Assembly (NCBI GenBank): GCA_951406725.2
Contig: OX597817.1
Span: 37,696,001-37,760,000, forward strand
Direction: 5' to 3'
Source of the DNA: Octopus vulgaris
Taxonomy: Eukaryota
Length of the DNA: 64,000 bases
In this document: piece by piece, positions 10,244 through 51,769 of the stretch
Layout: every line of letters starts with the position of its first letter
Numbering within the stretch: the stretch's first letter is position 1
Made by a program: the position numbers and the translations under genes
Notes under the pieces: generated by a model
Told to the model about the DNA's origin: nothing
The model's input: the letters and a program-made list of their open reading frames with translations, nothing else
Databases searched by the model: none

Positions 10244-11505
10244 CAAGCGTTAGACAAAATAATGGAAACACCTTAAAATTTCAAACAAATTTATTTTAAT
10301 ATGGAATAGGATCACCTTTGGCAGTAATTACAGCTTGGATTCTATGAGGTATGGACTCGTACAAACTTTGAATTGTTTCCAAAGGAATTTTTGTTCATTC
10401 TTCAGCTAAAATAGTCTCCAGTTCTTGTTGTGATGATTGTGGAGGATATCAACTCCTTACTTGTTTTTCTAAATTGCATCATAAATGTTCAATAATATTG
10501 AAATCTGATGACTGTGGTAGACAGATAAGATGTTCAACTTCACTAGAATGTTCCTTGTGCCATTCAGTAACAACTTTAGCTCTGTGAATTGGTGCATTAT
10601 CATCCTGAAAAATTGCGTTTCCCTCCAGAAACAGTTCTGCAAGCATAGGATCAATTTGATCTGATGAAATGCTTAAATAGTCTTGACTATTAATTCTGCC
10701 ATGAAGAAAAACCATTGGGCCAGTGGATTTCCAAGATATAGCTCCCCAGATCATCATAGATCCTCCTCCATGTTTAACAGTTGGAAGAAGGCAGTCTGGG
10801 TCAAATGCTTCTTTTGGCTGTCTCCACAGCCGGTGGTTGGAAATAAGGTAAAGGATGACTTATCCGAAAAAATAACATTCTTCCACTACTCTAGATTTTT
10901 TCTCCACTCTGTAGGTTTTTACTCCACTCTAAATGCTTTGTAGTGTTTGATTTTGAAAGTAGTGGTTTTCTGATTGCAGCCCTCCTGTGAAATCCAGCTT
11001 TGTACAGCCTCCAGCGAACAGTTTTTTGTGGAAACTGGGTTCTCGAGGTAGTCATTAAGCTCTGCAGTAATTGTGGGAGCTGTTCTTTTGTGATCCTTTC
11101 TAGCAATTCGTGTAAGGGTCCGGAAGAGTCTGAAAGTTTTGGTTTTCTTCCAGAGTTTTGTTTTGACGAGGAGGTTTTTCCCTCTTTCTCAAAGGCTGTC
11201 ATTACTTTTGAGACAGTACTTCTTGATACACCAAACATTTCAGTTGCTTTTGTTACGCTAGTGCCTGCCATATGAACACCAACAATCTTACTTCTTTGAA
11301 AGTCCGATAGATCTGTCATTTTAATGAATTTTAATTACCTTTTTCTGATATCTGAAAAGAAGCAGCAAATTTAGCAAAACATTTTAAGCAACACTAATAA
11401 TAAATCAAAAAACATAAAAATAAACATGCTTTTGACAGTATTATAGATCTTTCAAAATTATGATGCTATGATACTAGGTGTTTCCATTATTTTGTCCAAC
11501 CCCTG
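10244..11505 (-). mobile_element. Tc1-family DNA transposon, inactive
   Basis: ~29-bp TIRs (CAGGGGTTGGACAAAATAATGGAAACACC) with TA flank at the right. Frameshifted transposase: HTH MTDLSDFQRSKIVG...SRSTVSKV (10891-11319) and DDE part MIWGAIS...FQDDNAPIH...PQSSDFNIIEHL (10479-10757). Confidence 0.9.
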
Positions 11506-20300: not shown

Positions 20301-20558
20301 TATATACATCAAATATATGCACGATCTAGTATTTGTGAGTGACTATGTGTGGGTGAGTTTTCTGTAGTGACAGAAAACTAACCATAGATAAGTATGCGTG
20401 CACATACATGCATATGCTCACATTCAAAATTCACAATGTGAAAAAATACCTTGTTAGTATTTAAAATATCATTTTTGGTTAATATGTTTTATAATATTTC
20501 TTTTCTCTACTTTTCTTTCTTATTGTATCTTACAGAACAACATACAAAATAATTTACA

Positions 20559-21698
20559 ATGGCTGAAGAAAGCAGCAAGAAAGAAATTCCTGAAGTCAAG
20601 AAAGACCAAAATTTGAAGGTAACAGATGCCAAAGAACATGTTGATAAAGAAAACATACCTGCTGCAGCAGAAGGGAAGAACACTGAGAAAGAGAATCAAC
20701 AGAAAGATACATCCAAGAAAACACCATGTAACTCTGGGAAACATGGAAGATTTTCTAATTGCAATCCAATGAAAGAGAAACAGATATCTGAAGAGAATCA
20801 CCATTTTCCTGGATTTTTTGGTAGATACCAAAATGATTGTTGCCATCCTTACTATTTTAGAAGTGGCTGGAATACTTTTTCAGATCATTCCAATTGTTCA
20901 TGCCATCAGAAGGACAATTCAAAAGACAAAGAAAGTAAAGATTCCAAGACTGAGAATCTAAATCAGAGCAAACATGAAGAATGTCATGCCGATTCTTCTT
21001 GCCACATGGGGAGGCATTTTGGGAATCATAATTTCTCCAACCATTCAGAGAATTTTGATCAGTTTAGAAGACCACACTTTTCAGATATTCCTCCTTCTTT
21101 CAATAGACCAGGTCATCATGGTTTTCCTGGTAGAGGCAATTCTTTTGAGGTACCCTGCTTTTATGGTGGACCAAATCACTTTATTAGCCCTGACTGTGAT
21201 GACATGTCAAATTACTTTGATAGACCATGTATGTATGGAGGTCCAGATCACTTCATGAATCCATGGCAATTTAATGCTCCATGGCAATCTCATAGAAGAG
21301 GTCCTTTTGACATCCCTTGTCATTATGGTGGACCAGATCACTTTGTAGATCCGAGATATTTCCAAAGACCAAATTATGAATACAACTGTCACCCATCTGA
21401 AAACAGCTTCTTTCAGATGCCAAGACAAACACATGATTCCTCCTATTCTCCCAAAGAATGGCATTTTGATAGTCATCGTCATTTTGGCAGACCAGAAAAT
21501 TTTGGCCAGCATGGCCCTTTTCACCAAAGATTTGAAAAAAGCCAAGACAAAGCAGATTTTACATGGAATTCTAGATATGACAGACCACCATTTGATCATT
21601 TCTCACATCATCCAAGACATCCCTTTTTCCGTCGTTTTTCTAAACTGAATACTCCCATTGAAGATCGACCAATTTTCAAAGAATTTGATTTTTGCTGA
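20559..21698 (+). CDS. Uncharacterised 379-aa low-complexity protein with Lys/Glu-rich N-terminus and His/Phe/Pro/Gly-rich [FY]xxPxx repeat domain
   Basis: Longest ORF in the window and not microsatellite-derived. Polypyrimidine tract plus AG acceptor at 20534-20535, ACAATGG start context, and clustered AATAAA signals at ~22440-22560. Confidence 0.8.
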   Translation: MAEESSKKEIPEVKKDQNLKVTDAKEHVDKENIPAAAEGKNTEKENQQKDTSKKTPCNSGKHGRFSNCNPMKEKQISEENHHFPGFFGRYQNDCCHPYYFRSGWNTFSDHSNCSCHQKDNSKDKESKDSKTENLNQSKHEECHADSSCHMGRHFGNHNFSNHSENFDQFRRPHFSDIPPSFNRPGHHGFPGRGNSFEVPCFYGGPNHFISPDCDDMSNYFDRPCMYGGPDHFMNPWQFNAPWQSHRRGPFDIPCHYGGPDHFVDPRYFQRPNYEYNCHPSENSFFQMPRQTHDSSYSPKEWHFDSHRHFGRPENFGQHGPFHQRFEKSQDKADFTWNSRYDRPPFDHFSHHPRHPFFRRFSKLNTPIEDRPIFKEFDFC

Positions 21699-33871: not shown

Positions 33872-34382
33872 TCATTTTACTGTAATCCTTGCAGCATTTT
33901 TATCAGAAACAGTATATTGGTCCCATTTCTTCTCAGGGTCATATGGTTCCCATCGACATGCTGGGAATATATGCTTATTCCTTTCATACCAGCTACGCAA
34001 GCAAACTTTGCCAGCATGTGATTCATCTTTCTCCACAGTGGCATCATTGATCAAACGGATATCTTCATGCACATCAAAATTGAAGAGGGGTCCACTTTTG
34101 CCCCGAGCTTTTGTCACAATGAAATCATAAAATGTGTAATGATGTGGGATGATTAAGTCTTCTTTGACGTACATCAACTGATCGACTGTGATAGATTTCA
34201 AATCATTGAACTCTTTACGTAAATTCTCCAAACACCGTTGCAGGAACTGCTGTATACTGTTGCCTTTCTTCATTTTCACTTGTCGGCGATGACCAGAACC
34301 ATCCCAGTAACTGTAAGTAATTTCAATCTCTTCGTTTTTAATTTTTTCTTGTTTAGCAACCCATTCTTGACGAAGCTGTTCC
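33872..34382 (-). CDS. FAM50A: FAM50/XAP5 family protein, coding exon 4 (conserved C-terminal domain)
   Basis: EQLRQEW...[17 protein letters not shown]...[32 protein letters not shown]...[44 protein letters not shown] acceptor at 34384-34383, phase consistent with exon 3. Confidence 0.97.
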
Positions 34383-35101
34383 CTATAACAGAAAGAATAA
34401 AAATTAATAAAACATGGTACATATATATATATATATAAATATATATGGTATGTATATAAATGATATGCATACAAAAATGCATATATAAATATATGCATAT
34501 TAATTCAATTTGTATACATGTGATATATGTATATATATATATATATATGGGCATGGCTGTGTGGTTAGGGAGCTTGCTTCCTAACTACATGTTTTCGGGT
34601 TCAGTCCCACTGCGTGGCACTTTGGGTAGGTGTCTTCCGCTATAGCCCTGAGCCGACCGGAGCTTTGTGATTGAATTCGGTAGGCGGGAGTTACTGCCAT
34701 GTGTGTATGTGTGCGTATAGCTGCTCAGTGCCTCTCCAAAAGAGAAAGGGATATATATGATCCTTCTTAAGCCATGCCAGGCTCATAAGGGCCAATTTCC
34801 CGGTTTCAGTGGCATAGAAATTCGCCACCTGGACAGAACGCTGGTCTGTCGCTGGATTACTTATTTTTGCCAGCTGAGTGGATTGGAGCAACGTGAAATG
34901 AAGTGTTTTGCTCAAGAACACAATGCATTGCCTGGTCCAGGAATTGAAACCTCAACTTTACAATCTTGAGTTCAACACCCTAACCACTAAGCCACGTGCC
35001 TCCACACACACACACATATATATATATATGATAAAAAAATATTGCAAATTATTAAATATGTAAAAATCAAGTAAAACCTGGAGTAAGAAAAATCGACTCA
35101 C

Positions 35102-35286
35102 CTCAACTTGTTCTCTTCTTCTTCTCGATCACGGTCAGGTAAAAAGCTTGTGTCAACATCAGGATTCTTTCCAAGACGTTTTCTTTTCAATTTCCCTGTT
35201 GTGAAATCAATTTCTGGGAGTTCTTCCTCCAAGTCAGATATATCTTCATCATCACCTTCATCAGGGTCAAATGACAAAGCTGCTCT
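35102..35286 (-). CDS. FAM50A: FAM50/XAP5 coding exon 3
   Basis: RAALSFD...[27 protein letters not shown]; TTTCAG acceptor and GTGAGT donor; 185 nt. Confidence 0.95.
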
Positions 35287-35947
35287 CTGAAATGTGCAAA
35301 GATAAAATAGCTGCTTCATCAGAGCACGGGAGATACACAGATTATAACAAACCAAAATGAAAATCGTCGTCGCCGTCATCATCAAGCAGTGATCTTTGTT
35401 TCCAATCTTCAGTAAAAACATCTCTGGTCACAGGAAAACATTACCTTAGGAACAAGTGAGAGTTGGTAACATGAAGGGGATTCAGCCACAGAAAATCTGG
35501 CTCAACAAATTCTGTCCAACCCATGTGAGCATGGAAAAATAGACGTTAAGACGATGATAATGCAGATGACTTAACATTTTCAAAGAATTAAAGCCACATT
35601 TGAAGGAAGATAAATACTTTTCCATACAATGACTTGACTTTTTAGAAAAAAAACACTCATAGTGTTTTATCGTCAAAGCGGACATCATTATCTTGAAAAT
35701 GCTTTTCTTTATATTATCTTTTGTAATGCACTTAATATGTTATATATAGCCAAAGGCATGGCTGCGTGCTTGAGAAATTCACTTCCCAACTAAATGTATT
35801 TAGGTAGAGTTACACTGTATGATACCTTGGGCAAGTACTGCTTCTACTGTAGCCTTGGGCAAAAACAATGCTTAGTGAGTGGATATGGTAGATAATGGAA
35901 ACTAAAAGAAATCCTTCATATATATATATATATATATATATCATCAT

Positions 35948-35988
<41 letters not shown>

Positions 35989-36020
35989 TATATGTACATA
36001 CACACAAACACACATAATGC

Positions 36021-36054
<34 letters not shown>

Positions 36055-37009
36055 CAATAAGAAAATGGAGGGGGATCAATAGGTGGTTCATCAACTTTTA
36101 AACATTATATTATGTCAACGTATTTATTTATTTACTAAAATGACAATTACAAGAATATACATACATGTATACTATATTATGCTTTACATATAAAATATAT
36201 TAATATATAAAGATATTAATAATTGGGTATTCTACCAGCAATATATTGGATAGATATTGTCCCTTAGTTGGTTGGATTCACAACCTCTAACTCTCTTTGT
36301 ATTATATATATATGTGTGTGTGTGTGTGTATGTATTTTATGCATGAGTGAATGCATACATGGAGGTATGCATGTATTTGTGTCTCTTTGTCTTGACATTG
36401 CATGACAGTGGTAAATAAGTGTCGCAGTCATACATGCAATCTTTTGTGAAAATATGTCTAACCAAGAGGAAATATCACCTTACTTGGAAATAGACATAAT
36501 TAGGTTACAAGGAAGGCACCTTGCTGTCAAAAATCTGCTGCAACAAATTTCATCCAATCTATCCAAGCATGAAAATGTGGATATTAAGACAGCAATGATG
36601 ATGACGATGATGTTCATAGCTTTTGTAAGTTCATGGAGATGAAACTTATCCTGATATTAAGCATACTTAGGGACAGCTCCTCCCTCTCTTGCTTATGATA
36701 CCAATGTAGAACTGATTTATTTTCCTACAGGTTTCTCAGATACAAAGGATTAACCCATTAGCATTAGAACTGACCATACCTAGCCCAAATATTCATTGTT
36801 TTACTTCAAACTAGCTAGATCCAGTTTCTCACACCTACCCAAAAATGTCATTCTAAAAATAACAATCACACCATCAAAATTTTGAAGCCACAAGATTATG
36901 CATAATTAATTCAAAACAATGTGAATACATAAGTGTTACATTTGATAGAATAATCTGAATGCTAAAAGGTTAAACTGGGGTTCATTAATCATCATACTTT
37001 TATACCAAA

Positions 37010-37542
37010 CTAGCAGCATAGCCCGGCGTTGCCCGGGTATGTAAGAGCCCCTAGTAGGCAACGACTAATCCCAATCTAGTCCTTTCCCTCTAGGGAACAA
37101 AGGTGCATGTGTAGGTTGCAATGTCCTCTGTGTATACGATGTTCCTAGATGTCCCTTTGGGCGAAAACGCGATTTCCCAAAATGGCACGATTTTATCGAT
37201 ATTTCTGATGGTAAGGTATTGCATGGAAAACTAACGTCAGAATTAAGTTTCTTAGGGTAACATAACCATGAGTTTGGTGAAAATCGATTGCAAGTTGCAA
37301 AAACTACAACAGAAAATGTGTTGCATATAAAAAGCTTAGATTCTCGACCCCATGTCGAATTTATCGATCTTTTTTCAGAACTGGGGGAACTTTTAAAAAT
37401 TTTTGCTGCGTTAGTTTTGAATTATGACATTGGGCTATGTGTGTGTCAAGTTTCATCAGAATCGGTTGAAAGCCATGGTCAGGGTGAAGGTATAACCTGA
37501 CAGACACACAGACGGACAAACTGCCATTTATATAGAGAGAGA
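37010..37542 (-). mobile_element. Non-autonomous Helitron (second family) in FAM50 intron
   Basis: A|CTAG end with CCCGGCGTTGCCCGGG hairpin, and GA|T at the other end. Confidence 0.75.
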
Positions 37543-38179
37543 TATCCAAACTGTATGATACAAGTTGTCCCCCTTGTTTTTTCCTTTTGATCAATCTAAC
37601 ACTTTCTCCAGCTTTTCAAGAAAATAATGAGAAATTCAATTAATCTATTCACGATGTGAACTACGTAATAATAGGCTTCAAATTTGAAAAAACCCATCTC
37701 AGTAAAGTTAACATGAAAACAAAAAGATGCAAGTGACAAATAGAAAAAAACACAAACAAACAGAAGTACTTCCTTACTTAAAACCAATGTTTTTGTTTTT
37801 ATTTACCAAGGCCCATTCCCCCATAGGAGGGGGTAGCCACAACAAGAAACACACTAGGCATTTCATTCATTTTCTAGCTCAAAGAGGCGAGCCCTGCCCT
37901 ATGCTTGAGTCAAGGCATAGAAAGCAACCCCAAATATCAGCAGCAAGGAACGACAGCATATGCTGGTTTACCCCCGCTATATCTTGCTGGTTCCGTACCC
38001 CTTTGAGCAACATCAATTCACTCATCCGTCCACAAACACTCTCCAAGCTTTCCTATCATTTATAAACTCTCTTGCCTCTCTCAGTCCAACACCTCTAACC
38101 ACCAAAGCTTTCCTCATGGCAAAGGATGAAATATTAAGTGAAACTTCCTATTCTTTCTCCCATAGTCCCTCTTACATAC

Positions 38180-38319
38180 CTTCATTTTCTCATACCGTCT
38201 TTTCTCTTCCTGTTGCTTTGCATACTGCCGAGCTTCAGCATCTTTTTTGGCAAGTTGCTTTTCACGTTGTTTTACCACATCTTCTTGCTTTGCTTTCATT
38301 TCATCCAGAGTAACCAACC
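38180..38319 (-). CDS. FAM50A: FAM50/XAP5 coding exon 2
   Basis: GLVTLDEMKAKQEDVVKQREKQLAKK...; AG acceptor and GTATGT donor; 140 nt, phases match neighbouring exons. Confidence 0.95.
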
Positions 38320-39442
38320 CTTTTGATGAGAACAACGAAGGATGTCAGTATAAGAATAAATGACTTATAAGTAGAAGAAGATCATTACACAAGTAAATCT
38401 GTTGCATGTGAACTAAAGTATAAATTTTAGCAAATTGTGTGTCAGAATTTGCTTACTAATATAGTGGAAAATATATTAATGTAATTCAAAAGTTTTTTTT
38501 TTTTTAATGATTATGGTTATAGACATACATTTTCAAATTTTTAATATTGAAGAAAATTAGAGTTTTAGCAATGTAAATGAAAGCAGTTTTACTTGGAAAC
38601 TGAGCACATAATTTTAGCATTATAAGAACACAACCTTTGAAACCACCACCAACAGCAATAGGTGTTTTTTATTAGTTTAATGCTATGCAAACTGTGAAAT
38701 GCATCACCTCTTGAAATAGTCTTGTTTGAAAATGAAATAAGATTAGAAAAAAGTAGCATCAGGACAATTTGTGGAAATTGACAAATTTCTTGAGTCTGCA
38801 CTAAAGCAAGAAATCATTGATATTATTAAAAAGATATTATAAAAGAGACTGTTCTAATTACAGTCATGCTTTACAGATGTTTGCAGTCTAATATGATAAT
38901 ACTGTTTTGATCAAAGTTTTCTAGAGTGGAGTGGTGTATCACATAAAAAGGGATATCATGTATAGATTTGACACTTGGGAATTCCTACTGGAAACTACTT
39001 AAGAAGGTAAGATTTAAATATGTTCTTTAACCTGGTTTGAGTTGATCTATGATCAAAAACTTTAACCTGGTTTGAATTGACCTATGATAAAAAAAAACTT
39101 TTTAGTCAGGACTATACCAATTTTTGTGCATCTAGGACCACTTTGTCCAATGTGTCTTTCGAGTTGAGGGAGATGTAGCTGGTAATTCCAGTAAGCTGAG
39201 CAACCAAGTAGAGACCTCCCCTTGTATGCAGTGTTTTAAGGTAAATGCTGTTAACTGAATGTATTATTTAGGTTGTCTTCATATTTGTGGGCTTGTTTAA
39301 GAAGACTCAATAAAAAAAAAAGAAAATAACATTAGGTTGTGCCAAGAATTTAAATGCAAACACACAAATATTCCAAATCATTTCATATTCATTTCAAATT
39401 GTTAAAAATTATCCAGTTTTGAAAATATAAGATACAACTTAC

Positions 39443-39635
39443 CAATAGTATTTGATTTGAGTTGCTGTTCAACGGCATCATAATGAGCTGCAAATTTGTT
39501 CTGAATGCTACCAATTTTTAATTCCTCTTCAATTTTTTTCTTTTTTGCTTCCAGCTCTTGATGTTCTTTCTGGCGTTTCTTCATCAAACTGAAAGCTCTT
39601 CCAGCTTCTGATGCAGCGCCTTTGTAGTGTGCCAT
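39443..39635 (-). CDS. FAM50A: FAM50/XAP5 coding exon 1
   Basis: [14 protein letters not shown]...[20 protein letters not shown]; GTAAGT donor; upstream acceptor at 39677-39676 implies a 5' non-coding exon. The four exons total 1029 nt (342 aa). Confidence 0.96.
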
Positions 39636-44260: not shown

Positions 44261-45275
44261 GGTGTAAACAAAAACAAAATTCCTATACATTAATCAGGTT
44301 TTGTGGCAATCTTGTACAAAACCGTACATTGTTGGCGTGGTTGGTGTTGATTTTATTGATTATACTCTGCTGTAATGGGTATACTTGACTGGTGCATTAT
44401 TTTATCGATCTCGGTCGATAACATAAAGTACCACTCAAGTACTGATAGGTTTATACGAAGTAATACGTTTTCTAGTATTGAATTATAATGGATCACAAGA
44501 GAGAAACTCGGAATGATGAAAGACAAATTGATTTCGGGATGGTTGTATAGTAATTTTAATGTGCCTAGAAAGTCAACAAGGAGCCCTTGCGTGATCACTC
44601 GACCTGTTAGCAGCCAAATACACTATCTTCTAAAAGGAAAAGGCAGATAATGTAGTCCTAGATAGCCTCTAAATAGATGAATGTTTGCGATTAGAATTCC
44701 TTGCTATATAGCTAAATGTGAACCAATTCATATGGACTGCGATTATAATTTGTAGGCTCTGGACAATTCATTATCTGATATTTATCCTGTTATAGGTATT
44801 ATTAAGTTAATAGTCAAAGTTACAAGTTCCCAAAATTGCCGATTGAAGAGTAATGGTTACAAGTGTTATTTCATTTCATTGAAAGTTCTGAAACTTCACT
44901 TAGCAATTGCGTAGAGGTTCCCTTGACTCTCTATTTAATCTCGTTTGTAACTTAATGAATCGATGTATGTTGAGATGTTGTAAGAAGAAACAGAAACTGT
45001 TTTGAGGCGAATTATTTGTCGTAAAAAACAGACTTTTCTTTTTCTCTGTCTAACATAGAGCTCACAATAATGTTTATCTCTCATCTGAACACACCAATGT
45101 TTCTCGTTTCTTTGTTGTTGCTTAACCCCAACTCAGCTGGTTGAGTTGATCTATGGATCAAAAACACCGAAACCTAATTTTTAATAGGGCGGCAAGCAAG
45201 CAGAACCATTAGCGCGCCGGACACATTGTTTAGCGAAGTTTCGTCTGGCTCTTTACTTTCTGAATTCAAAATACA

Positions 45276-45493
45276 TATTTCTTTACTACCCACAAGGGGC
45301 TAAACACAGAGGGGACAAACGGATTAAGTCGATTACATCGACCTCAGTGCGTAACTGGTATTTAATTTATTGACCTCGAAAGGATGAAAGGCAAAGTCGA
45401 CTTCGGCGGAATTTGAACTCAGAACGTAACGGCAGACGAAATACGGCTACGCATTTTGCCCGGCGTGCTAACGTTTCTGCCAGCTCGCCGCCT
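45276..45493 (-). mobile_element. SINE family A monomer nested in an older SINE
   Basis: Reverse complement of the family core; flanked by TTTCTGAATTCAAA on both sides. Confidence 0.85.
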
Positions 45494-45803: not shown

Positions 45804-46616
45804 GGATCTAGTTGGTTTGGCTGCCAGCATTTCAATAATTAAAGTTTATCGAAAATTTTAAAATTTGGCACAACAATATACTTTTTCAAGCTGAATTGCT
45901 GGAGTTATTATTATTATTATTTTTTTTTTTTTTCAGAAAAAATGTTCTTAAAAAAGTTTGATAATTTTCTCCAAGTCGGGAAACAGGATTCCAAATCCTG
46001 TTTCCCGACTTGGAGAAAATTATCAAGCTGTCATTTTGTGCAAGTGTTCTCAACAGTCTGAAAATAGCGTGTGTTTTTATATGAAACTGTAAACAAATCA
46101 AATTCTGCTTAACGTACGACATATAACCCCTCAAAACCTTTTTAAAATTTGGAATTTTCAGAAAATTTTTGCGGAATGGTACTCTACACACGGGAATTCA
46201 TACGATTATGCAAAAAAAATTTTTTAGATGTGGGGCGTGATTTAAGACCTATTTAACTAAGAACTATTTAACTATTTCTAGCACATCTCACGGCCAGGAT
46301 ACAAGCAACAGAATACAGCGTCAATGCAAGTGACATCGCGTAGAATATATTTGTCAACACACGCGCTTTCTCGCTGACAAAAGAGTTCTCGTTTGACTTG
46401 TTACTATGGAAACAGACATGAATGTGTCTATAGCTTACGACTGGCTGAAATTACTCAAAATTTTCAAACTTTAATTGCTACTAACTCTTTATTAATTGAT
46501 TTACATCGAAAATGATTGTCACGTCGTTCATTAGCTTTTAAAAAAGGTATCATTTACACTGAATATGAAATCAGTTTGAGCAGAAAATGATGCTGGCAGC
46601 CAAACCAACTGGATCC
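45804..46616. mobile_element. Non-autonomous DNA transposon (Merlin- or Mutator-like)
   Basis: ~27-bp TIR GGATC(T/C)AGTTGGTTTGGCTGCCAGCAT; 9-bp TSD CTCACAGGT/CTCGCAGGT (1 mismatch). Confidence 0.75.
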
Positions 46617-47220: not shown

Positions 47221-47248
47221 CTGATAACGGCAATAGAGACTTCTAGTT

Positions 47249-47727
47249 AAGTAATGTTTATCGCCACTTACACGTGGCTGTTCCGTAAGAATCGACGTTA
47301 GTGCTTTTTTTAACCGCAGAAGGACGCCTGTTCCCGTTGGTTATTCGATGCAATCAGCACACGATATACATTGCAAACAGGGGAGTGAACCGCTACCATC
47401 TTCTAGCCACAAGACCACCAGACCGTACGGTTTATACCTCTGTGTATGTCACTTGGTTTTCTATATATTGCGAGCTGGAGTGAACTATGCTATCTCTAGC
47501 GGACGAGTATCTACCACCGAGGATGACCACAAAGACGTCGAAACCGCATGGTCTGGTGATCTCGCAGTTAGAAGAATGTAGGGGTTCACTCCCCTGCTTG
47601 CAATATGTCTATTAGATTCAGATTGCATCGAATAACCACCTGGAGGAGACATCCTCCTGAGGTTAAAAATAACAGTAACATCGGTTCCTACGAAACAGCC
47701 ATGTTTAAGTGGCAATAAAAATTACTT
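47249..47727. ncRNA. Rod-like imperfect inverted repeat carrying a hammerhead-like fold
   Basis: ~230-nt arms align with very few indels. Hammerhead-like fold at 47496-47571 on the plus strand. Confidence 0.5.
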
Positions 47728-47974
47728 CTCAGTATAGTTAGTGCGCTCATCACTTACAGAAATTTTCTAAGTAGCTAATTTATACGTCGCAAAACTTTTA
47801 GTTGCTTTATGAAACGTCTCCCTTCTCAAGTTATTCAAGGTCTTATATTGCTTTCTTCACTCTCGAAACTCATCAAGCACAAGAAATTGTTTGATCATTA
47901 TCAACAGCATTCGAAATAACTTTCCTTCTGAAATTGTCATGCTCTGTGATTTCAACAAGACATCTTGACTGTAT

Positions 47975-48005
<31 letters not shown>

Positions 48006-50353
48006 TCTATCATTAGGGTGGTGAGCTGGCAGAATAATTTGCATGCCAGGCAAAATTCTTAGCGGAATTTCTTACATTCTGAGTTCAAATTCCGCCGTGG
48101 TTGACATTGTCTTTCGGGGTCGATAAAATAAGTACTAGTCAAGCACTGGGGTCGATGTATTCGACTAATCCCCCTCACCAAATTTCAGGCCCTGTGCTTA
48201 TAATAGAAAATATTGTTGTTGTCGTTATTATTATTATTATTGTTGTTGTTGTTGTCATTATTATTATTGTTGTTGTTGTCGTTATTATTATTATTATTAT
48301 TATTATTATTCCAACTGATGAAGGTTCTGAAAGTTTTACCAACCAAAATTAAGTAAATTAGGAGTATCACTATAATTAGTAAGCGAGAGATGACCGACAT
48401 AGTCATTGTTGAGACTGAAAATAAAACTGAAGTTAAGTGACCGAGAAGCTAATGTTTCTTGTTTCTTCTCCAACAAAGAGCCCCACCCCAAAATTAGTTT
48501 CTACTGCATCTCACACCATAAAAATACACAACTCTTTCTATATTTCTATGTATTGATATATTTCCAGTCCTTCTTTCCCTTGTGTTGTTCAATTCTCCGA
48601 TACGTAGCGTACACACGATCTCATTTTAACCTCGACGCTCTCTTAATACATGTATTACAACGCCTATAAATATGAGGCATAACAATCAATGTCACGCTGT
48701 CAACTTACATCAGAATACCGCACAACAGCAATAACTTTGCGTCTCCTTCGGTTTGTTGTACTGGCTGCGAGTTGTCTCATACGAATGTTGTTGAAACAAT
48801 ATTTTATTTTATTGAAGGAAATTACAATATTTACATAATTACATAACAGTTCGCTAGAGCCAAATGTAGTTGCGATTAAATTACTAACAAAAGATATCAG
48901 CTTCGTGTGAAAGGCAAGAATAATGCTTGACCATGCAGGTTGAAGAATTCCGTTTAACTCGGAGCTGAACTACAGCCAAGGAAAACTTGATGAAGTAACG
49001 GGCTTGTTGTTTGTGTTTCCAACGTGCGCCTCTATCTGATTTGTTTGCGTACAGGGTGCTTATATAACTAAAAAAAACAGCACAGGAACTCCTGGAACTC
49101 CAAAGAACATTCCTTAATACGGAGTGATATTCCAGTGACTTAATAATGGCCTGGAAAGGAAGACAGAGAGATAGGTGGAAAGATGGGATAAGTGCATAGT
49201 GTGGAGATGGTATGAGAATGTGTAGCTCTGAAGAGTTGAGGTTGTGGTTGAAGAGAAATAAAAAGAAAAATACGTGAACATCGATTCTTTGAGCTAGAGA
49301 TTAGTTTGTACTGATGAGTGAACCACTACAAACCAGTCAAATGGCTTTACTTTGGATAAGATGGAGAACGCTTGCTTTTTTCTGTGTAGCAACAGCAGCG
49401 TCTTAAATGTGCGAGCAGTATTCTGTTGTAGACATCATTTCAGTTTTATAGAGTCAATAGATGTCCGAGGTTGAAGTATTTTCTGATTGTAAAGAAGAAA
49501 ACTAGTCTTTTTGATGCAGTTTTTGCTTTATTCATGAATGCGAGACTAATACTAATAGTACTATTGAGGACTTTACTTTTTGTTGGTTGAGGATTCCTTG
49601 AGTTCAGATTTTGTTGTTTACGAATAAGGATTTAGGATTCTTTTGTTGAATGCGTCAAACTAGTGGCACATTTGTTTCACGTTTAATGAAAGAATCGGTG
49701 TAAATCACTTGAATACAAATGATATATTGAAATTTAGTTTGTACAAAGTATTCAGCACCCTAGGCCAATCCTGCAACGAGAGGCTCCTTCCCCAGTCTTT
49801 TCTACATCATCTACCCATCACCTTACATCCACTGGAAAATGCACTTGTCAAACTATATGTAATTAGCTTGGCGAGCAAGCAATGTATAGTTCTATGATAT
49901 TGTACACAACAGGGTAAATTTGTTCCTGGGCAAACTTTGGAAATATTCTACGGCAAATCATTGTGACAGGTCATAACAGCCCCATGAGCCTTTCGATTCC
50001 ATTCCCATCCAACTATGCTCATTCTGGAGTGATTTAATCTGCTCTCTTTATTACTAATTTTTCCTGTTTTTAATTGGATGAAGAAATTCTGTCTAGATTA
50101 TATCTGGTGCTTTTCCTCCTTCCCATCCACAACTCGATTTTAGTACTTCAGGTGACCTCCGAGTTAACCTTGTACGGGATGCCAGCTCAGAGCTTGTATC
50201 ATGTACCTGGTTGATGAAATATACAGACGGCACTCACAGATGTCAGGCACGCATAGTTCGACTAACCATGTGGTAAGCGTTCGTTCAAGGTCTACTTCTA
50301 CTGGGAGCTTGTAGAATGTTTCATGCCGAGAGACTTTCAATAAACTGTACGAT

Positions 50354-50688
50354 TTGAGACCCCCTTCGGTCACGACACAGACCATGGGATTACACCTAGA
50401 AAGTTCCCCTTCCAGGCACAAGAGCGGGCAAGGTTGTTTATGGAAGACCAGCAGTCGCCCATGCATACCGGCCTCCCCTCTCCACCAGTGTTATCCAAGG
50501 GAAAGGCAAGGGCCGATACAACTTGGCACCTGTGACGTCGCAACTCATTTCTACAGCTGAGTGAACTGAAGCAACGTGAAATAAAGTGTCTTGCTCAAGA
50601 ACACAACACGCAGCCCGGTCCGGGATTCGAGCTCACAACCTCACGCTCGACGTTCGACGTTCTAACCACTGAGCCATGCGCCTTCACA
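50354..50688 (-). mobile_element. tRNA-derived SINE (shares a central domain with family C variants)
   Basis: tRNA-like head at the right end. GCAACGTGAAATAAAGTGTCTTGCTCAAG domain also at ~34890 and ~52670. Confidence 0.7.
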
Positions 50689-50873
50689 GCTGTACAATAT
50701 GTACAATAATACGACGTACATGATACTCGTGGTATGAGTATATTACTAACAGATACTTACTATATACACACCTCTCACTTTCTGGTACTTAGTGCGTATT
50801 ATATGGCAGCAATAAATCATTAAATAACTACTTAACAGCTTTAAGTTATAACAATTAGATTACATAATTCATG

Positions 50874-51259
50874 TGGAAGCACTCCGTCGGTTACGACGAC
50901 GAGGGTTCCGGTTGATCCGAATCAATGGAACAGCCTGCTCGTGAAATTAACGTGTAAGTGGCTGAGCACTCCACAGACACGTGCACCCTTAACGTAGTTC
51001 TCGGGGATATTCAGCGTGACACAGAGAGTGACAAGGCCGGCCCTTTGAAATACAGGTACAACAGAAACAGGAAGTAAGAGTGTGAGAAAGTTGTGGTGAA
51101 AGAGTACAGCAGGGATCACCACCATCCCCTGCCGGAGCCTCGTGGAGCTTTAGGTGTTTTCGCTCAATAAACACTCACAACGCCCGGTCTGGGAATCGAA
51201 ACCGCGATCCTACGACCGCGAGTCCGCTGCCCTAACCACTGGGCCATTGCGCCTCCACA
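50874..51259 (-). mobile_element. SINE family C
   Basis: Near-identical to 31508-31891; TSD ACATAATTCATG. Confidence 0.9.
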
Positions 51260-51370
51260 ACATAATTCATGATAGTGTCATGATTTACATGTTACTACAG
51301 TAATCGGCCTACCTTCGCTGTATATTGGTTGCTATTTGTTACTTTTTATGATTATGCTATTTATTTTAAA

Positions 51371-51769
51371 CTAGCAGTATCGCCCGGCGTTGCTCGGGTT
51401 TGTAAGGGAAATAACTATATAAGCATTTTTAGAGAGTTATAGCCAAAAAATAGCAAAAAAATGCATTAGAAATGGAAAAAAAATTATGGTAAATTTTTTT
51501 TTAAATCGTTGACTCATCGTAGACATTTTTAGAGAGTTACTTCCCTTATATAATAGCGAAAAAATGCATTAAAATGGAAAAAAAATTATGGTAAATTTTT
51601 TTTTAAATCGTAGACTCATCGTAGACGCGCGCTAATACCCAGAAGGGCTCGATATGAATCACGACTATAAAATACCCGGTTTTGGTTAAACTGCACCGCA
51701 AAATGTGGGAGTAGTTAGGAATCTAAATCGTAGGAGACAGACACACAACCTTACTTTTATATATAAAGA
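51371..51769 (-). mobile_element. Non-autonomous Helitron
   Basis: Reverse complement of 15864-16258 with TC/CTAG ends. Confidence 0.85.

What the first reader, a model, noticed from the sequence alone, without database searches (positions are those of the whole stretch)
47249..47727. ~480-nt rod-like RNA candidate with a hammerhead fold on one strand and a decayed counterpart on the other
Seen: the element folds back end to end, with ~230-nt arms, roughly a quarter of positions mismatched, and very few indels. By hand count about 16 transition mismatches give G:U on the minus strand versus about 6 on the plus strand. The right arm can alternatively form a type I hammerhead: stem I CGAG-ATC-ACCA (47504-47516) with TGGT-GAT-CTCG (47554-47564), extendable by TCTAGC/GTTAGA; core CCGAGGA (47517-47523, U4C variant plus one extra nt); stem II GAC/GTC; GAAA; stem III CC-GCAT-GG; GUC site ending at 47553. 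The left arm read on the minus strand keeps the same outline (AAA-CC-GTAC-GG-TC-TGGTG) but its core is broken. No TSD, no convincing ORF, single copy in the window. Established: opposite-polarity hammerheads paired in a rod are typical of Avsunviroidae and viroid-like circular RNAs, and Penelope pseudo-LTRs and retrozymes also carry type I hammerheads. Inference: an integrated viroid-like or retrozyme-like unit, an inverted PLE end, or a hairpin-RNA gene. The plus-strand A:C mismatches would also be favourable ADAR sites.
Basis: partly seen in the sequence, partly recalled or inferred. Interest (0 to 1): 0.75.

Follow-up and report, generated by a model that had tools for sequence, protein, structure and literature searches.

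The report
Old Penelope-type hammerhead retrozyme, inverted insertion
The rod is two back-to-back, cut-short copies of a 359-base repeat found hundreds of times in this genome; the repeat carries a predicted self-cutting RNA and was likely pasted in by a Penelope-type jumping-gene enzyme, so it is a known kind of genomic parasite, not a viroid.

Summary
The fold-back is real (z about -21) and the plus-strand type I hammerhead outline is there. But the element is not unique and not viroid-like. It consists of two 5'-truncated copies of one ~359-nt non-coding monomer joined head-to-head; the genome search gave 1,405 candidate places. The 'minus-strand hammerhead' is the same ribozyme, cut off before its core. 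The element runs on past 47727 into a ~55-65-nt tail, probably within a 10-bp target-site duplication. Across the family, 3' ends cluster at two points. All 16 inverted pairs with both ends at those points carry the tail on one arm only, and 8-9 of them have 8-12-nt flanking repeats (null about 5%). That matches published Penelope-like insertions. Stem II covaries among copies and a sister family keeps the fold, so the source ribozyme was likely real. This copy is ~11% diverged, its arms show at most one shared change, and the G:U bias is not a family trait. Verdict: an old non-autonomous Penelope-type retrozyme. This scan already reported younger families of this kind elsewhere in the same genome. 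Cleavage and circular RNA are untested.

The parts
47239..47248 (+). Candidate target-site duplication, left copy (10 nt)
   Evidence: Matches 47794-47803 at 9 of 10; abuts the left arm directly. Suggestive only for this copy.
47249..47445 (-). Left arm: 5'-truncated monomer copy, positions M166-362, ending at the no-tail 3' end class
   Evidence: 89% to family majority; 22 of 197 positions differ
47415..47445 (-). Remnant of the same hammerhead (loop 2 to stem I 3' strand); C3-A9 absent by truncation, G12 changed
   Evidence: Mapping and sequence
47443..47781 (+). Right arm: 5'-truncated monomer copy, M79-416, running across the monomer junction into the tail; overlaps the left arm by 3 nt
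   Evidence: 89% to family majority; 33 of 337 positions differ
47504..47564 (+). Predicted type I hammerhead. Stem I 47512-47516/47554-47558; core CCGAGGA 47517-47523 (U4C); extra U 47524; stem II 47525-47527/47537-47539; GAAA 47540-47543; stem III 47543-47545/47550-47552; predicted cut after C47553
   Evidence: pairs and probabilities; family conservation; covariation
47728..47793 (+). Tail: the start of the next monomer, present on this arm only (clear to 47781, degraded match to about 47793)
   Evidence: 40 scored matches to 47728-47781 elsewhere; period 359; the last 12 nt are judged by eye
47794..47803 (+). Candidate target-site duplication, right copy

Best explanation
The element is an old genomic insertion of a 359-nt non-coding, hammerhead-bearing repeat (a retrozyme-type unit), made of two 5'-truncated copies joined head-to-head, and it was likely written by a Penelope-like RT/GIY-YIG enzyme acting in trans. 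SHOWN: monomer, copy number, circular permutation across the monomer junction, two 3' end classes about 60 nt apart, tail on one arm only, head-to-head geometry, flanking direct repeats in about half of complete pairs, and coding PLEs in the same genome, one with the same inverted layout. INFERRED: the source RNA was a tandem or circular hammerhead-processed transcript. The endonuclease made a staggered cut of about 10 nt in AT-rich DNA. Both DNA ends primed reverse transcription at two fixed internal sites (M~362 and M~420), and the two unfinished cDNAs were joined at their 5' ends. The rod is therefore a by-product of insertion geometry. The arms have since decayed independently and this copy is likely inert.
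For: 1,405 candidates. Period 359. Of 169 unique pieces in 99 loci, 47 end at M354-371 and 62 at M407-429. Of 42 unique head-to-head pairs, the 16 with both ends in these classes are all one-of-each, with none A+A or B+B (chance about 1e-5 by hand), and there are 0 tail-to-tail pairs. 20 of 49 pattern-picked loci have an inverted partner. Flanking direct repeats in 8 of 16 pairs (score >=8) against a 4.6% null. Stem II pairs 163-175 and 164-174 change on both sides among 69 copies. Sister family B is 58% identical with a canonical CTGATGA core, and 17 of 41 helix pairs changed on both sides with 1 broken. L161 is an RT+GIY-YIG element with 775-nt inverted arms and a U4C-core, GTAC-loop hammerhead. 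Literature: inverted 5'-truncated copy with a one-sided tail (PMC8557442), 8-10-bp TSDs (PMC3846280), two internal RT start sites explain the tail (PMC11167929), 350-390-bp mollusc retrozymes (PMC7229834).
Against: No coding element sharing the monomer's sequence was found: 0 convincing BLAST matches to PLE sequence in 46 GIY-YIG loci (the one strong hit was a family-B copy) or to PLE family C. So the driver is not identified. 26 of 42 pairs have at least one end outside the two classes, and only 1 of these 26 has a flanking repeat. Only 4 of 169 pieces span two hammerheads and none reaches two full monomers, so long tandem arrays were not seen. 5' ends are spread over the monomer with no clear pile-up at the cut site. 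Only 24 of 73 hammerhead-spanning copies keep an intact core. The samples are biased: 59 loci were picked by similarity to the window's rod or tail. In L008 the adjoining PLE arm stops about 135 nt short of its family's usual end, which weakens it as a chimeric insertion.
Confidence: 0.88

Rival explanations
1. The monomer is the solo pseudo-LTR of an extinct coding Penelope-like element rather than a free-standing retrozyme, so the template was a long PLE transcript.
For: Hammerheads sit in PLE pLTRs, and opposite-strand pairs 100-700 bp apart were reported for truncated PLEs (PMC4209133). The U4C core and GTAC loop are shared with the L161 PLE.
Against: Upstream of monomer position 1, copies continue into the previous monomer, not an ORF: 21 pieces exceed 380 nt and 4 span two cores. 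No shared non-monomer upstream sequence other than nested repeats in 55 loci. tblastn of two PLE proteins against 164 loci hit one family-A site only.
Confidence: 0.06
2. The rod was kept or co-opted as a hairpin-RNA gene or ADAR substrate, for example a source of small RNAs against the family.
For: Very stable fold. One run guessed to be RNA holds a 251-nt contig matching 47447-47692 with 2 differences. The site lies about 7.6 kb upstream of a FAM50/XAP5 gene start.
Against: Each arm is about 10-11% from the family majority, like other copies, with at most 1 shared change between the arms. The G:U bias is unique to this pair among 33. Similar rods are common in the family. The X1 evidence is one study, its RNA status is a guess, and the contig has no strand information.
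Confidence: 0.04
3. An integrated viroid-like (Avsunviroidae-type or retroviroid-like) RNA with hammerheads in both polarities.
For: Rod shape, size and one hammerhead outline.
Against: The two polarities are one duplicated sequence. The monomer has no minus-strand core, the repeat is dispersed in DNA, the ends follow PLE rules, and the rod abolishes the hammerhead fold.
Confidence: 0.01
4. A foldback or MITE-type DNA transposon with 197-bp terminal inverted repeats.
For: Long inverted arms and a possible TSD.
Against: Arm lengths and junctions differ in every pair, the two outer ends are different monomer positions, and 29 of 49 pattern-picked loci have no adjoining inverted partner.
Confidence: 0.01

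Closest known systems
Metazoan non-LTR retrozymes (Cervera and de la Pena 2020, PMC7229834; mussel 350-390-bp repeats; Li, Clavereau and Pollet 2026, 10.64898/2026.07.22.740005)
   Same: Non-coding monomer of 359 nt, one type I hammerhead per monomer with a short stem III and palindromic loop, highly self-paired monomer, tandem junctions, coexistence with coding PLEs.
   Different: Mostly sub-monomer or under-two-monomer dispersed copies, old (8-29% diverged), U4C majority core; circular RNA and cleavage not shown here.
Penelope-like element insertions (PMC8557442, PMC3846280, PMC11167929, PMC4209133)
   Same: 5' truncation, head-to-head inverted copy, tail at one end only, 8-12-nt flanking repeats, AT-rich targets, hammerhead with an unpaired base before stem II.
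   Different: No RT/GIY-YIG ORF; tail about 55-65 nt rather than 30-40 bp; hammerhead has an extended stem I rather than the minimal pLTR form.
Avsunviroidae and viroid-like rod RNAs (features recalled, not from a call)
   Same: Rod-like fold of a few hundred nt containing a hammerhead.
   Different: One ribozyme in inverted duplicate rather than two distinct ribozymes; multi-copy chromosomal DNA; no sign of selection on the rod.

Membership tests
Non-LTR retrozyme | Non-coding monomer of about 170-400 nt | tested here: met
   Period 359; no ORF of 120 aa or more over the element
Non-LTR retrozyme | Type I hammerhead in each monomer | tested here: met
   One plus-strand core per monomer; stem covariation. 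Core is U4C in 44 of 73 copies and U4 in 24. Rfam models gave no hit.
Non-LTR retrozyme | Head-to-tail tandem organisation with two or more hammerheads | tested here: inconclusive
   Not at this locus. In the family 4 of 169 pieces span two cores and 21 exceed one monomer; no longer arrays seen.
Non-LTR retrozyme | Self-cleavage and circular RNA | not testable with these tools
   Only contigs were available
Penelope-like element (insertion type) | 5'-truncated inverted copy joined head-to-head | tested here: met
   42 unique head-to-head pairs, 0 tail-to-tail
Penelope-like element (insertion type) | Optional tail at one end only | tested here: met
   16 of 16 classifiable pairs have one tailed and one untailed arm
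Penelope-like element (insertion type) | Short TSD (8-10 bp reported) at AT-rich sites | tested here: met
   8 of 16 at score >=8 against a 4.6% null; flanks 74-78% AT. The window's own TSD is 9 of 10 and only suggestive.
Penelope-like element (autonomous) | RT plus GIY-YIG ORF within the unit | tested here: not met
   None in the monomer; tblastn over 164 loci. Coding PLEs exist separately.
Avsunviroidae / viroid-like RNA | Distinct hammerheads in both polarities of one monomer | tested here: not met
   Left motif is a truncated inverted duplicate; no minus-strand core
Avsunviroidae / viroid-like RNA | Rod maintained by compensatory change | tested here: not met
   At most 1 shared change between arms against 42 mismatches
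Avsunviroidae / viroid-like RNA | Autonomously replicating circular RNA | not testable with these tools
   No raw RNA reads available
MITE / foldback DNA transposon | Fixed identical termini and constant internal structure across copies | tested here: not met
   Junctions vary in all pairs and the two ends are different monomer positions

The most novel reading that the evidence does not exclude
Family A and its sister family B define a cephalopod-type retrozyme lineage whose whole 359-nt circle is under structural selection, including a 3' multiloop that closes only across the monomer junction and brackets the two RT start points. A Penelope enzyme copies this RNA from both cut DNA ends using a different fixed start site at each end. 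The enzyme comes from a PLE lineage that shares the U4C hammerhead core, and it can occasionally pair a retrozyme RNA with its own RNA in one insertion (L008). This would give a minimal, testable cis-element for PLE trans-mobilisation.
Probability: 0.4. Interest if true: 0.55.

Novelty: new member of a known kind. Interest (0 to 1): 0.27.

Why it matters
The locus itself is a fossil. The family adds genomic support for the proposal that animal retrozymes are mobilised by Penelope-like elements, which the 2026 preprint argues from co-distribution and phylogeny. The strict one-tail-per-insertion rule, the TSDs and the structure conserved between two 58%-identical families point to the RNA element that a PLE protein would recognise. 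It also warns that long imperfect rods with a hammerhead in this genome arise routinely from insertion geometry and should not be read as viroids.

Tried and rejected
Rfam scan: no hammerhead hit. Sequence upstream of the hammerhead fragment in L040 as a possible autonomous partner: single-copy. Flanks shared by L022, L039 and L040: nested repeats that look like octopus SINEs, by recall. A 30-nt match between the monomer and the L161 pLTR: E 0.43 and antisense, rejected. Intron location in FAM50 as the cause of the strand bias: the start codon is at about 39635, so the element lies outside the coding span; a 5' UTR intron was not excluded. ADAR signature: A>G 337/8727 against T>C 376/9961, p=0.76, and no hyper-edited copy among 65. 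5' ends at the cleavage site: no clear enrichment. A young CCGATGA subfamily: 5 pattern hits; of 4 examined, 2 were old family-A copies and 2 unrelated. L008 as a clean chimeric insertion: 28 of 30 family-C copies run 102 nt or more past the marker motif, against +4 in L008, so it is not established. Sequencing runs: no RNA holder listed on record. X1 and X5 gave no cover of the unique flank 48320-50276 and X1 none of the element's immediate flanks, which proves nothing because a filter drops records. Orthologous conservation: organisms B and C hold the locus nearly unchanged, too close to measure selection.

Full report
OBSERVATION. 47249-47727 folds into a rod on both strands: plus -235.7 kcal/mol, z -21.8; minus -263.8, z -20.3. 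The plus strand carries a type I hammerhead outline with C3 at 47517 and C17 at 47553. Rfam found no hammerhead at E up to 10. The rod and the ribozyme exclude each other: all 11 ribozyme pairs have probability 0 in the rod. In the right arm alone stems I and II form and stem III does not (0.03-0.04). A weak stem III with a palindromic loop is usual for metazoan type I ribozymes, which work as dimers (PMC4209133, first quarter of text read).

WHAT IT IS. The genome search returned 1,405 candidates, 40 scored, and most top hits cover only query 195-479. Aligning 28 loci gave a unit whose first ~64 nt recur 359 nt later, so the family is a circularly permuted 359-nt monomer (M). The window holds M166-362 on the minus strand (47249-47445) and M79-416 on the plus strand (47443-47781), each 89% identical to the family majority. 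The left 'hammerhead' is thus the same ribozyme, truncated inside loop 2. An exact 19-mer occurs 55 times; with about 11% divergence per non-CpG base this implies some 500 copies of that region (my estimate). Pieces over 150 nt are 8-29% diverged, mean 15% (103 pieces); no young copy was seen.

INSERTION ANATOMY. Among 169 unique pieces in 99 loci, 47 end at M354-371, 62 at M407-429 and 60 elsewhere; 5' ends are spread out. Fifty-nine loci were chosen by likeness to the rod or tail, so these proportions are biased. In the 49 pattern-picked loci, which include the window, 20 have an adjoining inverted partner. One search lists 43 head-to-head pairs, of which L057 and L058 are one site, leaving 42; there are no tail-to-tail pairs. 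All 16 pairs with both ends in the two classes have one tailed and one untailed arm. Direct repeats of 8-14 nt flank 9 of these 16 at score >=7, or 8 at score >=8 (which excludes the window), against 6.2% and 4.6% for mismatched flank pairs. Two of the hits involve microsatellite-like sequence, and only 1 of the other 26 pairs has a repeat. The window's candidate repeat is 47239-47248 / 47794-47803, 9 of 10, and needs the tail to run about 12 degraded nt beyond 47781. The 20 nt beyond the ends are 74-78% AT. These are the described PLE features: an inverted 5'-truncated copy and a tail at one end (PMC8557442, passages), 8-10-bp TSDs and mostly head-to-head inversions (PMC3846280, passages), and a tail defined by two internal RT start sites at AT-rich cuts (PMC11167929, parts 1-2 of 4).

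IS THE RIBOZYME REAL? In 69 copies, stem II pairs 163-175 (6 double changes, all paired) and 164-174 (16 double, 12 paired) covary, and pair 141-201 more weakly; the other 21 of 24 tested pairs do not. These are subfamily events, not independent ones. A sister family B (2,521 candidates) has a canonical CTGATGA core, aligns at 215 of 373 columns and folds into the same overall shape. Over 41 pairs in 8 helices that I registered by hand on the two majority sequences, 21 are the same, 2 changed on one side, 17 changed on both sides and 1 is broken. One of these helices pairs the monomer's 3' part with the tail, so it forms only in tandem or circular RNA. Position 4 is C in 44 and T in 24 of 73 copies; it lies in a CpG, so some T may be decay, though the G164-C174 subfamily has T in 6 of 9. 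U4C lowers activity in vitro but can suffice in vivo (PMC3088659, passages). Only 24 of 73 copies keep an intact core; the window's right arm shows all core residues but has one stem II and one stem I mismatch.

THE ROD IS NOT SELECTED. The arms differ at 42 of 197 positions: 6 G:U on plus, 17 G:U on minus, 19 transversion-type (p=0.035). It is the only one of 33 pairs under 0.05, about what chance gives. All 23 transitions are one-arm departures from the majority; 21 of the left arm's 22 changes fall at mismatches, so at most one change is shared. The family shows no A>G excess and the monomer has no minus-strand core.

THE DRIVER. The genome has 6,136 GIY-YIG candidates, many in 781-aa open frames. 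L155 and L161 carry RT-like (just under the Pfam cut-off) and GIY-YIG domains. L161 has 775-nt inverted arms in the same geometry and a hammerhead with a CCGAAGA core and GTAC loop, also in L164; L168 has the U4 form. No coding element shares the monomer's sequence. At L008 a tailed family-A arm adjoins, head-to-head, 458 nt of the 3' end of a coding PLE family C of similar age (92% to its majority). That arm stops well short of family C's usual end, so it is a lead only.

EXPRESSION. No holder is on record as RNA. Run X1, guessed to be RNA, has one 251-nt contig matching 47447-47692 with 2 differences; contigs give no strand or ends. The site is about 7.6 kb upstream of a FAM50/XAP5 start codon, in a CpG-retaining region.

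MECHANISM. Shown: anatomy, copy number, end classes, flanking repeats, covariation. Inferred: a tandem or circular hammerhead RNA was bound by a PLE protein; both ends of a staggered cut primed reverse transcription at two fixed sites; the truncated cDNAs were joined. The framing of one circle copied from both cut ends also appears in earlier notes of this scan on other DNA in this genome, which I saw after stating the PLE/retrozyme reading. Self-priming on an antisense template, proposed in PMC3846280, is an alternative route to head-to-head inversions that I did not test.

NOVELTY. Animal non-LTR retrozymes are known, including 350-390-bp mussel repeats (PMC7229834, passages and section 14). 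Their PLE origin is argued in 10.64898/2026.07.22.740005 (part 1 of 5 and passages; supplements not seen). Three searches found no paper describing an octopus or cephalopod retrozyme; the host being a cephalopod is my inference. The scan's index held no note on this sequence but listed eight on younger families of the same kind here. Verdict: new, old member of a known kind; interest 0.27.

Noticed in passing
L008:1445-2273 (G000:C2, about 94.349 Mb): A tailed family-A monomer is joined head-to-head to the 3' 458 nt of a coding PLE (family C, 3,152 candidates), between microsatellites. Possible two-template insertion, but the PLE arm lacks its usual end.
   Followed up: partly
L171-L200 (for example L161:5585-5812): Sister hammerhead family B: about 355-360 nt, canonical CTGATGA core, 2,521 candidates, copies mostly 90-97% to majority, ending at a fixed point in TA repeats.
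   Followed up: partly
L161:1812-4992; L164; L168: Coding PLE with 775-nt 99% inverted arms and a pLTR hammerhead with a U4C core (CCGAAGA); a relative has the U4 form.
   Followed up: partly
L236-L265, about 55-85 nt after the marker motif: By eye, PLE family C has a minimal hammerhead-like motif whose core seems to read A3 and U8 instead of C3 and G8, with a 2-bp stem II and a palindromic loop 3. Not tested.
   Followed up: no
L155, L156, L157: Near-identical intact 781-aa RT+GIY-YIG ORFs at many sites: a recently active PLE family. No clear pLTR hammerhead found by my scan.
   Followed up: partly
L052:1173-1667: Inverted pair whose two pieces end and start at M191 and M189, at the predicted cut site; a single case.
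   Followed up: no
window 33872-39635, minus strand: FAM50/XAP5 gene (Pfam PF04921, E 6e-58), coding exons near 39.6, 38.3, 35.2 and 34.5 kb.
   Followed up: partly
window about 44000: CpG observed/expected jumps from 0.2-0.5 (1-44 kb) to 0.8-1.0 (44-64 kb), like a boundary of a methylated domain.
   Followed up: no
window 45955-46029: Near-perfect 36-bp hairpin (97% complementary, 3-nt loop).
   Followed up: no
window 20553-21698, plus strand: 381-aa open frame rich in H, F, P and G with short repeats; no Pfam hit.
   Followed up: partly
window 10479-11334, minus strand: Broken frames that look like a Tc1/mariner transposase (recalled resemblance).
   Followed up: no
window 45188-45492, 48017-48166, 50300-51400: Copies of abundant short repeats, probably SINEs (recalled), very deep in all runs laid over 50300-51400.
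   Followed up: no
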